From: Octopus sinensis
Taxonomy: Eukaryota
DNA: 64,000 bases
Reading direction: 5' to 3'
Assembly (NCBI RefSeq): GCF_006345805.1
Contig: NC_042998.1
Location: forward strand, 27,342,001-27,406,000
Shown here: positions 41,395-64,000 of the stretch, piece after piece
How positions within the stretch are numbered: position 1 is the first letter of the stretch
How the letters are laid out: each line of letters opens with the position of its first letter
Program-made: the position numbers

Positions 41395-44300
41395 TGAGTA
41401 TGTGTGTGTGTGAGAGAGGGGGAAGAAAGAGAAAAAGAGAGAAAGAATGGGTGAGAAAGAACAGGAGGGAGAAAGAGAAAGTGAGGGAGAGAATGGGCTG
41501 ATATATTTTACCTGTACAGATACCTTTTATTGATTGCTGATAGAGTTAATAATGAAGGATTAAAACTGTACACCTGTGAAGAAGAGAAAGGACATGTGTC
41601 TGCATATAAAGAGACTACAGCTGGATTTTTATGGTGATTATTGCCTTTGTCGGATCTAGTTAAGCTTTTCATAACTGCATTTCAACTGATTTATATTGCA
41701 TACCTGTGAAAGTTCATCACTTTTGAAAATAATCAAGAATTTCAAGGGATTTAGTCAAATTATTAATTTTTACATTTATTTCTATATCAAACTGATGTTT
41801 AGAATATTAATTAACAGAAGGTTCTTAGACAGAAATAAAAATTTTTTTAAAAACTATTATGGAAAGATTTAATATTGATACAAACATTTTGTAACTGGCT
41901 ACTTTGTATCAAAGAACCAAAGGACGCTTGTCCCTGGTAGATTGGTTCTAACCATTTAGCATTTAAACAATAATAATAATGAAATTATTGTATGGTGCTC
42001 AGGTGCACCACAACTTGTCAAAAGTGCGTGTAAAGCATATGCAGTAATGTACAAATGTCTGGAAAGTGAACAGTGTATGAGTTAGGTATATGCTTGCGTG
42101 TGCATGGAGGGGAGGAAATCAGGTGTAGTGTTGGCGAATCTCAGGAAGCATGGAAGTTTTGAAGGATGCAGTGCTCCGACAACTAACAACTGATGCCGAC
42201 AGTTTGTTCCATACTTCAGCAACTCTTAGCATGAAAAAATGTTTCCGAAAGTCATGGGAGCTGTGCTGTTTTCTGACTTTGTAAACATGTCCACGGGTGT
42301 AAGACAGGTGGAGTTTGAAAAGGTGCTCAGAGTTATTGTTTGTAAGACGGTTAATAATTTTATGGGTGTCTGCCAAGTCAGCTGCCAGACGTCAGAGTTT
42401 CAATGTGTCCATGCCCAGGGAGGTAAGGCATCCAGAATTAAATGTTCTACCTCTTCTATGCTCAAACTGGCCAGATCCAGCCTCTCACACATACCCTACA
42501 ATGTCATTCTAAAATAGAATGTCATTCTAAAAGTTTTAAGACAATGTATGATTAATTATAAACGATGCGAATAAATAAGTATTACGTTTGCCAGAGTAAT
42601 ACGAATGTTAAAGGGTCACAGAACTTTGAGAAGACGAAATACATTTTTTTGCAAAATGAATATTTTATAGTTAATGTTCTGTAAAGTATTTTGTCTAATG
42701 GGTAAATATTTTAATGCGAATTTCTAGAAGTGAATTAAACAGTTAAAAGTATCTTCTTACTTCAAAACATATTTCTCTTTATTGTATAGTGTTTCCTGTG
42801 ACATTTATAATGAGCAAAATATATTTTAGTAGCTTAAAAATCATTAAAATTTCTTTTAGTATTTTTTTCGTTAGCAACACAACTCAATATAATGTTCTTT
42901 CGACTGTTTTTATATCAAATCAATATTTAGGTTTGCATTTTGATCTGTTGCTGTAGCTTGGGTACACTTTCATCCCATTCAGCCTGAAAGAAGTTTCCAT
43001 AGATTGCATCCTGCAGGTAGTATTTCCGAGCAAAATCTCTCATCCTGTGGTTAGGTCTACCTTCTGCACTGTTGTTTGTTAACTTTTTCAGTCCAGGAAA
43101 GTCCATTCTGCCATTAGGTTGTTTGTACAACATGAATACGTAACGGTGATGGCCTGAATGGATTAAACAAAAGTAAAACCATAAAAATGAATACCTATGT
43201 ATATGTGTGTGTGTACATATACGTACATACATACATACATACATACATATGTATAGGCGCAGGAGTGGCTGTGTGGTAAGTAGCTTGCTAACCAACCTCA
43301 TGGTTCCGGGTTCAGTCCCACTGCGTGGCATCTTGGGCAAGTGTCTTCTGCTATAGCCCCGGGCCGACCAATGCCTTGTGAGTGGATTTGGTAGACGGAA
43401 ACTGAAAGAAGCCTGTCGTATATATGTATATATATATATATGTATGTGTGTTTGTGTGTCTGTGTTTGTCCCCCTAGCATTGCTTGACAACCGATGCTGG
43501 TGTGTTTACGTCCCCGTCACTTAGCGGTTCGGCAAAAAGAGACCGATAGAATAAGTACTGGGCTTACAAAGAATAAGTCCCGGGGTCGATTTGCTCGACT
43601 AAAGGCGGTGCTCCAGCATGGCCGCAGTCAAATGACTGAAACAAGTAAAAGAGAAAGAGAAAGAGAAATGCGACTTATTCTTTGTAAGCCCAGTACTTAT
43701 TCTATCGGTCTCTTTTGCCGGACCGCTAAGTGACGGGGGACATAAACACGCCAGCATCGGTTGTTAAGCAATGTTGGGGGGACAAACACAGACATACAAA
43801 CATACACACACACATATATATATATACATATATACGACGGGCTTCTTTCAGTTTCCGTCTACCAAATCCACTCACAAGGCTTTGGTAGGCATGAGGCTAT
43901 AGTAGAAGACACTTGCTCAAGGTGCCACGCAATGGGACTGAACCGGAACCATGTGGTTGGTAAACAAGCTACTTACGTGTACATATATGTACATACATAC
44001 ATACATATGTATTACATACATATAAGAGGGATGACCACTACGTGGACAACCCTTATGCTAGAAGTAGATCCATTATGGTCTTAACAGATCTACTTCTAGC
44101 ATAAGGGTTGTCCACGTAGCGGTCATCCATCTTATATGTACGTAATACATATGTATGTATGTATGTATGTATGTGTGAAGGCATTTGGCTTAATGGTTAG
44201 GGCTTTCAGATCATGATTGTAAAGTCGTGAGTTCAATTCCTAGTGGCACATCGTGTCCTTGAGCAAGACACTTTATTTCATGTTGCTCTAGTCCACTCAG

Positions 44301-61300: not shown

Positions 61301-64000
61301 GTCTGTTGAGAACCATTGGCTTATCCTCACAACCATATTATTTCAGACAAATTTTAATGACAAAATCTTATACAGGCCCCTACGGGTCATGTGAACACCA
61401 GTTGAGAACCATTGGCTTATCCTCACATATGAGATCAATACAATAAATATCTGTGAAAATACTAGGTTTTATATAATTGGCTAAAAGACTATCTTTGAAA
61501 GCAATGCCCCAGCATGGCATATCCCAATGATGAAAACGGTAAAAGAATAAAAGAATGAAAGAAAAGAAAGAAATTGCTGTCTTACCAAAAGCTGTTTTGA
61601 TGGCAATCTATCCACTATTCTGTTAACGAGACCATGAGTATTGAAAGCCTCCATTGGTAATTTTTATATTATTTTAGTAATGTATAAATCAGTTTTGATG
61701 GGGTTTTCTTTTTGTATTATCCTTGGAATAAACGTTATTAGTCTTATATTATCCTTGAGATAAACATTAAATTTGCTTGAAACTTCTGCTTTCCTTGTGC
61801 TGTTGTTTCTGCTTTTATAACCTTTATTCTCAAAATAACAACAACAGTCTTGGGCATTGGTTCATTAGATTTTAAGCATGGATAATGAGTTCTTTATGTA
61901 TTAATTTCTTTATTTTTACTGTTCAAGACAGACATTGTGAAAGATCTCTTAACAGTGGCACAGTTAATCAAGCAATTAATGTGAATAATAAGATCTTATA
62001 CAAGAGACTTTACAAATGTAGAGAGCTGGGTAATTACTTGTACAGTGAGACAGAAACTTAGCTAATGCGTAGTGTGTTTAAATATGAGTAATAAAGTCAT
62101 TCTAAAGTCTTACAGATAGAGTGAGAAATAAGTGTTAGCACAATGGGACGATCATGATAGCTTTAATTAATCAGGCTTTGTCATTGCCACCAGTGAAAAG
62201 AATGATTTGTAATTTAGTAAAACAAGTTTAATTATACAGAAATAAAGTATAGTATATATAGTTGCTTATTTGCTTTTTAAGAACTTCTTTTAATGCATTC
62301 AGAAAAAAAATTTTTTAAATAGACGCAAATATTTTAAAAATAGATGCAAAAAAATGTTGAACTAAATTTATACACCAGATAACGAACTTTTTATGAGGAT
62401 TAACTATTCTTAAAATATTTGCATAAGCTGGAAATGAAATGAAATTTAAATTGCAAATTTAGAGGAAAAGTTTATCCAAAGGGCCCCTGGAGTGATGTGA
62501 CTCAAGAGTGTGTGTAACTTGAAGATCAGGGAGTCTCTCCAGGTTGAACCCTAACTTCCTTACACTGAGGAGTCATAACTCTAATATTATTTAGAATTTT
62601 GCAAGAAAGAATTGCAAGACAGATTCTTCAAGCTGAGCCAAGTGGCAGGAAACCTAAGGGAAAACCACAAATGAGATTGGTTGAATAACATTCATAGTCT
62701 CAATTGGTCATGTTTTGAAATCCAACTGGAGACTCTAATGATGGTTGCTTCTCTTAGGACCCAATGGAAGAGGTGCCTAAGGACCCTACCTACACTACAT
62801 GCATCTTATAAGAATAGTGAGCAGAGATGATAGACTGATGCATGAGACATGGGCTAGCTAGCTGGATTGATGGATGGGGAGTGGATGAAAGTTTGTCAAA
62901 ATTTTTGATTAATCTATATATATAAAACTGAGGTTGTCTGTGTATGGCAGGTTTGGTAGCCTTCAACTAACACTATCTCCTCCGAAATTGAAAGTATGAT
63001 AGAAGAAGGCTTGCTCTTCATTCCGTAGAAGATAAAATTCGAATCAGACCATGTTAACACCAAAAATTATTTATATCAAAAAGGTGCTTTTTTTCTATGA
63101 AAATCCCCTTTTTACGATTTTTTGACTGCTGTATCGCCATTTTTCGGTGTATTTCAACCAGAAAAATGTTCACTTAAAGAGAATAACAAGCTACATAATG
63201 CAAACTTTTTACTTTTCAAAAATTCCAATTCTGAAGGGTCAAAACAAACCCGAGCAACGCCAGGCGATACTGCTAGTTTTAACTTATTTTAAAGACAATG
63301 CTGCTTTAGCAGGTAAAGACAAAAAGAAAGACATGAGGCAAGTTGATAACAGTCTCATTGAAATATAGGAATATATATTCACTCTCAATCTAAAATGTGG
63401 CTAAATGCTCCACACTTATATTAGTATCTTATAACTCATTGCGATTTTATATACATGCACACATATACATACACACTCATATTTACATATACTTGCACTA
63501 ATCACTGGCAGAAACGTTAGCATGCTGGGCGAAATGCTTAGCGGTATTTTGTCTGCCATTACGTTCTGAGTTCAAATTCTACTGAGGCCGACTTTGCCTT
63601 TCATCCTTTCGGGGTCGATTAAATAAATACCAGTTATGCACTGGGGTCGATATAATCGACTTAATCCGTTTGTCTGTCCTTGTTTGTCCTCTCTGTGTTT
63701 AGCCCCTTGTGGGTAGTAAAGAGATAGAAATAGGTAGTTCGTCTGCCGTTACGTTCTGAGTTCAAATTCCGCCGAGGTCGACTTTGGCTTTCATCCTTTC
63801 GGGGTCAATAAATTACGCACTGGGGTCAATGTAATCGACTTAATCCGTTTGTCTGTCCTTGTTTGTCCTTTCTATGTTTAGCTCCTTGTGGGCAATAAAG
63901 AAATAAGTATCATTTGCATAAATATCATTAATTATCACAGTCATTAATTTAACTAATATAATTACTATAGATAATCTGTTGTGTCTGGGGAGAGTTATTT

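What the first reader, a model, noticed from the sequence alone, without database searches (positions are those of the whole stretch)
42927..61654. O-crystallin-like PEBP paralogue: possible lens-crystallin recruitment within an expanded PEBP subfamily
Seen: a complete 184-aa PEBP gene spread over 18.7 kb. Known: octopus O-crystallin is a lens-abundant PEBP-family protein. From my recollection of its sequence, this protein shares subfamily-specific features absent from generic PEBPs (MEAFNxHGLV start, GMxxTPS, YYTLIMND, EFxHWLVVNI, GPLPxKG, GRMDFxGxKK, YGNFFQxEWDxSVPK) while differing at many other positions. Inferred: a paralogue rather than the characterised crystallin, useful for tracing how a lipid/phosphate-binding protein was recruited as a crystallin.
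Basis: partly seen in the sequence, partly recalled or inferred. Interest (0 to 1): 0.72.

Follow-up and report, generated by a model that had tools for sequence, protein, structure and literature searches.

The report
Intact four-exon PEBP gene
This is a real, intact gene for a small ligand-binding protein of the widespread PEBP family, but nothing available here could show whether it is related to the octopus lens protein O-crystallin.

Summary
On the minus strand, four exons (61654-61586, 49406-49286, 47069-46932, 43153-42927) with canonical GT-AG borders and matching phases give 555 nt, that is 184 codons plus TAA. Exons 3 and 4 match solved PEBPs strongly and in the same order (best is Tm16 at 4.6e-13 and 1e-13; rat and human PEBP1 at 1e-11 to 1e-9). 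The DPDxP and GxHR signatures are intact.

The interpretation could not be tested. Only 3 papers in the held library contain the term "O-crystallin", and none gives a sequence.

- 3 of the 7 (the N-terminus, GPLPAKG, GRMDFPGLKK) have no counterpart in solved PEBPs.
- The window holds no second PEBP copy, so a local expansion is not shown.
- One derived feature is worth noting: the pocket loop GSGPP of solved animal PEBPs reads GPLPA here.

Verdict: an ordinary new member of a known family. The crystallin link stays open. The source organism was not established.

The parts
61586..61654 (-). Exon 1, coding, 69 nt (23 codons), phase 0 at its 3' end. ATG at 61654-61652; donor GT at 61585-61584.
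   Evidence: An in-frame TAA lies three codons upstream of the ATG. No PDB match at E<=10 and no Pfam match. By eye, charged residues are spread through the N-terminus, so there is no hydrophobic leader.
49286..49406 (-). Exon 2, 121 nt (40 codons plus 1 nt). Its last base starts the split codon G|AT = D, the first D of DPDSP.
   Evidence: acceptor cag|, donor |gtaag. PDB matches are weak but in the expected order. Of 8 sequences at E<=10, 5 are PEBP-family (FT 0.082, Tm16 0.098, FT 0.11, bovine PEBP 0.78 and 0.79) and 3 are designed trefoils.
46932..47069 (-). Exon 3, 138 nt. It encodes the rest of DPDSP, the conserved His (His86 equivalent) and the pocket loop GPLPAKG.
   Evidence: Pfam PF01161 PBP, E 5.9e-4, 20.6 bits, below the 24-bit cut-off for this 45-aa piece. 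PDB: Tm16 4.6e-13, rat PEBP1 7.4e-12, human PEBP1 1.5e-11, aligned to residues 71-114.
42927..43153 (-). Exon 4, 227 nt including the stop TAA at 42929-42927. It encodes G|HHRY (the GxHR motif), a variable loop and the C-terminal QAEWDESVPK block.
   Evidence: PDB: Tm16 1e-13, rat PEBP1 3.5e-11, Drosophila CG7054 6.1e-10, human PEBP1 2.6e-9, aligned to residues 118-184. In the Atlas, the nearest cluster is 'Phosphatidylethanolamine-binding protein 1' at 0.93, and 25 of 30 hits fall in the PBP set. Pfam gave no hit at E<=1 for this piece alone.
42778..42783 (-). AATAAA, a candidate polyadenylation signal 144 nt after the stop codon.
   Evidence: Read directly. Its role is inferred, not shown.
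61812..61819 (-). TATAAAAG, a candidate TATA box 158 nt upstream of the ATG.
   Evidence: Read directly. Its role is inferred. There is no CpG island nearby: CpG observed/expected 0.26-0.42 and GC 0.29-0.31 for 61501-62500.
49407..61585 (-). Intron 1, 12179 nt. It contains a 96-bp x 8 tandem array (60659-61427) and interspersed repeats.
47070..49285 (-). Intron 2, 2216 nt, with SINE-like repeat copies.
43154..46931 (-). Intron 3, 3778 nt, dominated by a (TATG)n microsatellite at 44500-45785.

Best explanation
This is an intact, apparently functional gene for a cytosolic protein of the phosphatidylethanolamine-binding protein (PEBP/RKIP) family. The protein has 184 residues and about 21.4 kDa. 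The gene has four exons spread over 18.7 kb of AT-rich, repeat-laden animal DNA.

The protein should adopt the PEBP beta fold. Its conserved anion pocket is built by the DPDxP segment, the conserved His, the loop before GxHR, and the C-terminal segment. It most likely binds small anionic or phosphorylated ligands and partner proteins, as PEBP1/RKIP-type regulators do.

Shown here:
- the gene structure;
- family membership, exon by exon;
- both signature motifs intact;
- 9 of 16 pocket residues identical to human PEBP1.

Inferred:
- the fold;
- cytosolic location;
- the ligand-binding mode;
- that the gene is expressed.

The pocket loop is derived (GPLPA in place of GSGPP). The specificity of the pocket may therefore differ from that of PEBP1. 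On present evidence it is an ordinary family member; a lens-crystallin role is neither supported nor excluded.
For: **Gene model.** Canonical splice sites, matching phases and an uninterrupted 555-nt reading frame.

**Family membership.**
- Exon 3 and exon 4 each match solved PEBPs at 1e-13 to 1e-9, in the same order as residues 71-114 and 118-184.
- Exon 2 aligns weakly at residues 26-70 of PEBPs.
- Exon 3 hits PF01161.
- Atlas: 25 of 30 hits for exon 4 fall in the PBP set.

**Identities counted by me from the printed alignments.**
- Exon 3: 26 of 44 to Tm16, 25 of 43 to rat PEBP1, 24 of 44 to human PEBP1.
- Exon 4: 32 of 69 to Tm16, 29 of 70 columns to rat PEBP1.
- Exon 2: 11 of 35 to Tm16.

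**Pocket.** The 16 pocket residues are listed in PMC8539980 (passages read). I mapped them through the 1bd9_A alignments.
- Identical: D70, P74, H86, V107, G108, P111, H118, Y120, L180.
- Changed: A73S, Y81F, W84F, G110L, P112A, Y181Q, L184I.

**Signals.** AATAAA lies 144 nt after the stop. A TATAAAAG lies 158 nt before the ATG.
Against: - No transcript or protein evidence is available, so expression is assumed.
- The whole protein was never scored against Pfam or folded, because the exons were not joined. The only Pfam hit (20.6 bits) is below the 24-bit cut-off. 3 of the 4 exon pieces gave no Pfam hit.
- Exon 1 has no detectable relative in the PDB.
- 7 of 16 pocket residues differ from PEBP1. 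These include Gly110, which the cited docking paper reports as a hydrogen-bond partner of ligands, so ordinary ligand binding is not assured.
- The three motifs without counterpart in solved PEBPs fit a lineage-specific subfamily, which could be the O-crystallin one.
Confidence: 0.6

Rival explanations
1. The gene belongs to the same cephalopod PEBP clade as lens O-crystallin. It would be either the orthologue or a close paralogue, and it is expressed abundantly in lens-forming cells as a refractive protein, with ligand binding relaxed or lost.
For: - They could mark a lineage-specific subfamily.
- The pocket loop carries G110L and P112A, and Y181 is Q.
- There is no leader peptide, by eye.
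- The protein is about 21.4 kDa with no Cys.
- The upstream region has a TATA-like box and no CpG island, as expected of a tissue-restricted promoter. This is a weak argument, and whether it applies to this organism is unknown.
- From recall only: the 1999 paper described O-crystallin as a PEBP relative of about 22 kDa that is lens-specific. I saw only its title in a reference list.
Against:
- 4 of the 7 motifs are family-wide.
- The source organism was not shown to be a cephalopod.
- Both PEBP signatures and 9 of 16 pocket residues are kept, as in working PEBPs.
- AP-1 sites (TGASTCA), which I recall as a feature of squid crystallin promoters, occur at the chance rate: 8 found against 8.88 expected. 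The nearest is about 680 nt upstream of the TATA-like box.
- No PEBP duplicate lies in the window.
Confidence: 0.28
2. The gene is a recently silenced or unexpressed copy, a young pseudogene whose reading frame has not yet decayed.
For: There is no expression evidence. 37% of the gene span consists of intra-window repeats, and large microsatellite and tandem arrays sit in introns 1 and 3.
Against: The frame is open over all 184 codons. All six splice dinucleotides are canonical. Both family signatures are intact. The start codon, stop codon and an AATAAA are in place. Repeat-rich introns are common across this whole window, 28% of which is in self-repeats.
Confidence: 0.05
3. The protein is a secreted PEBP of the nematode Ov16/Tm16 type, for example a protease or immune modulator released from a gland.
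For: The best solved match for exons 3 and 4 is Tm16 of a parasitic nematode. My recollection is that Tm16 is an excretory/secretory protein.
Against: Exon 1 starts at the first in-frame ATG after a stop. By eye it carries charged residues throughout and no hydrophobic leader. No signal-peptide predictor was available.
Confidence: 0.05

Closest known systems
Tm16 (PDB 5tvd), the PEBP-like protein named in the PDB entry
   Same: It is the best solved match for both informative exons: exon 3 at 4.6e-13 with 26 of 44 identical, exon 4 at 1e-13 with 32 of 69 identical. The order is the same. It shares the DPDxP, H-W-L-x-V-N-I and HRYVF blocks and the QA.WD..VPK block.
   Different: Tm16 keeps GSGPPKG where this gene has GPLPAKG. 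Exon 2 is only 11 of 35 identical. Exon 1 has no detectable match.
PEBP1 / RKIP of mammals (PDB 2iqx rat, 1bd9 human, 1a44 bovine)
   Same: The length class is the same (184 against 187 residues). The matches are in the same order, at residues 26-67, 71-114 and 118-184. Both signature motifs are present, and 9 of 16 pocket residues are identical.
   Different: 7 pocket residues differ: A73S, Y81F, W84F, G110L, P112A, Y181Q, L184I. The N-terminal exon is unrelated at the detectable level. Whether the intron positions match those of the mammalian gene was not tested.
Drosophila CG7054 (PDB 2jyz)
   Same: It is an invertebrate PEBP. Exon 4 matches at 6.1e-10 and exon 3 at 1e-6.
   Different: The similarity is lower, and the alignment of exon 4 stops before the C-terminal end (query 2-66).
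O-crystallin of the octopus lens (Zinovieva, Piatigorsky and Tomarev 1999; only the title was seen, in a reference list)
   Same: From recall only: a PEBP relative of about 22 kDa. The review PMC13643694 (passage read) says only that cephalopods express a taxon-specific O-crystallin.
   Different: Unknown. No sequence, tree or expression comparison could be made here.

Membership tests
PEBP family (Pfam PF01161, PBP) | DPDxP motif | tested here: met
   The motif reads D|PDSP. The first D is the codon split between exons 2 and 3 (G|AT). It aligns to D70-P74 of 1bd9_A.
PEBP family (Pfam PF01161, PBP) | GxHR motif | tested here: met
   The motif reads G|HHR. The G is the codon split between exons 3 and 4 (G|GC). 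HR aligns to H118-R119 of 1bd9_A.
PEBP family (Pfam PF01161, PBP) | Score against the family profile at or above the curated cut-off | tested here: inconclusive
Only separate exons were scored. Exon 3 gave 20.6 bits against a cut-off of 24 (E 5.9e-4). Exons 1, 2 and 4 gave no hit at E<=1.
PEBP family (Pfam PF01161, PBP) | Significant, same-order sequence similarity to PEBPs of solved structure | tested here: met
   Exon 3 matches 9 distinct PDB sequences at E<=1e-6 and exon 4 matches 10, all PEBPs, at chain positions 71-114 and 118-184. Exon 2 is weak, at positions 26-70.
PEBP family (Pfam PF01161, PBP) | Conserved ligand pocket (16 residues of human PEBP1, as listed in PMC8539980) | tested here: inconclusive
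   9 of 16 are identical and 7 are changed, including G110L and P112A. The effect on the pocket was not modelled.
PEBP family (Pfam PF01161, PBP) | PEBP beta fold | not tested
   No structure prediction was run, because it would need the joined exons.
O-crystallin (cephalopod lens PEBP) | Groups with the described O-crystallin sequence in a tree of PEBPs | not testable with these tools
   No O-crystallin or cephalopod PEBP sequence could be reached: closed protein searches, no PDB entry, and the paper is not held.
O-crystallin (cephalopod lens PEBP) | Abundant, lens-preferred expression | not testable with these tools
   No expression data are available.
O-crystallin (cephalopod lens PEBP) | Source organism is a coleoid cephalopod | not tested
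   No tool here compares the window with animal genomes. GC 0.35, abundant SINE-like repeats and long introns fit such a source but do not identify it.

The most novel reading that the evidence does not exclude
The gene is a close paralogue of lens O-crystallin caught part-way through recruitment. It keeps the PEBP signatures, but its anion pocket is remodelled (GSGPP to GPLPA, Y181Q). It has a TATA-type, non-CpG promoter that drives lens-enriched expression. If so, it would give a natural series from ligand-binding PEBP to refractive protein, in parallel to the GST to S-crystallin series.
Probability: 0.1. Interest if true: 0.55.

Novelty: new member of a known kind. Interest (0 to 1): 0.25.

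Why it matters
As it stands, this is a routine gene annotation: one more PEBP in an animal genome. It would matter only if the O-crystallin link were shown. Cephalopod crystallins are a textbook case of enzymes and binding proteins recruited as lens proteins, and the PEBP-derived one is the least studied. A paralogue with intact signatures but an altered pocket loop would allow a direct test of whether loss of ligand binding comes before or after recruitment. The pocket-loop change (GPLPA) is the one concrete, checkable feature that came out of this work.

Tried and rejected
**Second PEBP copy in the window.** I ran tblastn of the four exon peptides against all 64 kb (word size 2, E<=10). Only the self hits were significant. 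The next best were E 0.42 (exon 2), 0.55 (exon 3), 0.86 (exon 1) and 1.4 (exon 4). A local tandem expansion is therefore not shown. Copies beyond the window stay unchecked.

**Literature route to O-crystallin.**
- 'O-crystallin' + 'octopus': 2 papers.
- 'O-crystallin' alone: 3 papers. One is a 1989 yeast hsp26 paper that I did not open.
- The review passage names O-crystallin without a family or sequence.
- The 1999 paper appears only as a reference and is not held.
- The 1996 review has no PMC id.
- 'phosphatidylethanolamine-binding protein' + 'crystallin' + 'cephalopod': 0 papers.
- The same PEBP term + 'octopus': 2 papers held, 1 listed. It is a sea-slug paper, and its passages are irrelevant.
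- 'PEBP' + 'cephalopod': 2 irrelevant papers, judged from the listing only.
- 'phosphatidylethanolamine-binding' + 'lens crystallin': 2 irrelevant papers, judged from the listing only.
- A six-term search requiring at least 3 terms listed 25 of 520 papers. None held both a PEBP term and a cephalopod term.

**Promoter clues.**
- AP-1 sites are at the chance level: 8 found against 8.88 expected, and 71 of 100 shuffles reach 8.
- There is no CpG island.
- Neither result decides anything.

**RNA genes.** Rfam gave 0 matches at gathering score, and ARAGORN found 0 tRNAs.

**Intron and flank ORFs as nested genes.** I scanned 9 ORFs against Pfam at E<=0.1. 8 gave no family. One (49694-49981) gave a sub-threshold bacterial DUF896 match (18.3 bits against a cut-off of 24.2), taken as chance.

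**Neighbouring long ORF, 11600-13159.** No Pfam hit and no PDB hit. The best Atlas hit was 0.88, 'Znf238.2 (Fragment)', with recognition 1002; this is a lead only.

**Not done.**
- Joining the exons for a whole-protein Pfam score, structure prediction, fold search or pI.
- In one search, only residue counts were summed over the four exon pieces plus the two split codons, to get length, mass and charge.
Comparison with other animals' PEBPs therefore stayed unchecked.

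
Full report
**Observation**

A stop-to-stop ORF listing of 42000-62500 (492 frames of at least 25 aa) shows four minus-strand frames with PEBP-like translations. Reading the DNA and a script check fix the model.

| Exon | Coordinates | Length |
|---|---|---|
| 1 | 61654-61586 | 69 nt |
| 2 | 49406-49286 | 121 nt |
| 3 | 47069-46932 | 138 nt |
| 4 | 43153-42927 | 227 nt, including TAA |

- Each acceptor reads cag|. The donors read |gtaag, |gtaag and |gttag.
- The phases (0, 1, 1) fit. 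The two split codons read D and G.
- The ATG follows an in-frame TAA three codons upstream.
- The introns are 12179, 2216 and 3778 nt.
- All 7 quoted motifs are present.
- The window has no N.

**Family**

The joined sequence was never made, scored or folded.

- **Exon 3** (45 aa) matches PF01161 at E 5.9e-4, 20.6 bits, below the 24-bit cut-off for such a short piece. The other three pieces give no Pfam hit at E<=1.
- **Exon 3 against the PDB:** Tm16 at 4.6e-13, rat PEBP1 at 7.4e-12, human PEBP1 at 1.5e-11, aligned to residues 71-114.
- **Exon 4 against the PDB:** Tm16 at 1e-13, rat PEBP1 at 3.5e-11, Drosophila CG7054 at 6.1e-10, human PEBP1 at 2.6e-9, aligned to residues 118-184.
- **Exon 2** gives only weak matches, but in the expected order. 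5 of the 8 sequences at E<=10 are PEBPs, the best at 0.082. The other 3 are designed trefoils.
- **Exon 1** gives nothing at E<=10.
- **Atlas:** exon 4 falls among PBP clusters, in 25 of 30 hits, with a top score of 0.93.
- **Signatures:** DPDxP (D|PDSP) and GxHR (G|HHR) are intact.

It is a PEBP-family gene with an intact reading frame.

**Pocket**

A docking paper on human RKIP lists 16 residues that define the conserved pocket (PMC8539980, passages read). I mapped them through the 1bd9_A alignments.

- Identical (9): D70, P74, H86, V107, G108, P111, H118, Y120, L180.
- Changed (7): A73S, Y81F (rat also has F), W84F, G110L, P112A, Y181Q, L184I.

All 5 printed alignments of exon 3 (Tm16, three rat constructs, human) show GSGPPK where this gene reads GPLPAK. 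This derived loop is the one distinctive feature that I can document. Its effect was not modelled.

Judged by the printed alignments, four of the seven are family-wide blocks:
- GMxxTPS, compared with G..LTPTQ in Tm16 and G...RPSQ in FT;
- YYTLIMND, compared with LYTLVL in Tm16 and FYTLVM in FT;
- EFxHWLVVNI, compared with EWHHWLIVNI in Tm16;
- YGNFFQxEWDxSVPK, compared with AGTCFQAEWDDSVPK in rat.

Three have no counterpart in solved PEBPs: the N-terminal exon, GPLPAKG and GRMDFPGLKK. The argument that these features are "absent from generic PEBPs" therefore holds for fewer than half of them.

**O-crystallin**

No sequence of it could be reached.

- The held library contains the term in 3 papers.
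- A 2026 review says only that cephalopods express a taxon-specific O-crystallin.
- Another paper merely cites Zinovieva et al. 1999, which is not held.
- The third is a 1989 yeast hsp26 paper that I did not open.
- Searches that joined PEBP terms with cephalopod or lens terms found nothing relevant.

Orthology, paralogy and lens expression remain untested. The source organism is also unproven.

**Surroundings**

- No second PEBP exon exists in the window; the next-best tblastn E value is 0.42.
- 28% of the window and 37% of the gene span are intra-window repeats.
- Intron 3 carries a 1.3-kb (TATG)n array, and intron 1 a 96-bp x 8 tandem array.
- Upstream of the ATG there is a TATAAAAG at -158 and no CpG island.
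- AP-1 sites are at the chance level.
- AATAAA lies 144 nt past the stop.
- Summed residue counts give about 21.4 kDa, 23 K+R against 21 D+E, 0 Cys and 8 Met.
- A long S/P-rich ORF at 11600-13159 on the plus strand is probably part of a neighbouring gene that converges on this one. It has no Pfam or PDB match and only a weak Atlas lead.

**Verdict**

- The gene is an ordinary, intact PEBP family member (confidence 0.95 for that part).
- Acting as a cytosolic PEBP-type ligand-binding regulator is the most likely mechanism (0.6).
- The O-crystallin-clade reading stays possible (about 0.28) but is unsupported by any tool result.
- Novelty: a new member of a known kind.
- Interest is low to moderate, pending the simple BLASTP, tree and RNA-seq checks listed under next steps.

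Noticed in passing
window 44500-45785 and 45894-46152: A very long (TATG)n microsatellite sits in intron 3, with 321 copies at 89% matches and a second 64-copy block. It produces spurious open frames of up to 508 aa in both strands.
   Followed up: partly
window 60659-61427: A tandem array of 8 copies of a 96-bp unit (96% matches) lies in intron 1, 158 nt downstream of the exon 1 donor. Because 96 is a multiple of 3, it gives a spurious 261-aa open frame on the plus strand. Its function, if any, is unknown.
   Followed up: partly
window, e.g. 48070-48313, 52995-53432, 55674-56075, 63504-63910, 9771-10421, 17999-18260: An interspersed SINE-like repeat of about 180-250 bp gives up to 24 intra-window matches per copy. 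Two 184-bp units lie in tandem at 53058-53424. By eye it has a B-box-like stretch. ARAGORN and Rfam found no tRNA or RNA family in it.
   Followed up: partly
window 11600-13159 (+) and 19284-19790 (+): A 519-aa S/P-rich open frame and a 168-aa polyQ/polyP frame are probably exons of a neighbouring gene that converges on the PEBP gene. There is no Pfam hit and no PDB hit for the 519-aa frame. The best Atlas hit is 0.88, 'Znf238.2 (Fragment)', with low recognition, so it is a lead only.
   Followed up: partly
window 42110-42238 and 59810-59938 (wider: 41983-42359 and 59379-60059): There are two copies (83% identical) of one repeat, one just past the 3' end of the gene and one inside intron 1. 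By eye, the ORF pieces around them look like the tail of a retrotransposon protein. Pfam found nothing at E<=0.1.
   Followed up: partly
window 13823-14485: A minisatellite-like block is open in three plus-strand frames, with a repeating peptide pattern, and gives up to 18 intra-window matches.
   Followed up: no
window 20001-28000: An 8-kb stretch is markedly AT-rich, at GC 0.25-0.28 against 0.35 for the whole window.
   Followed up: no
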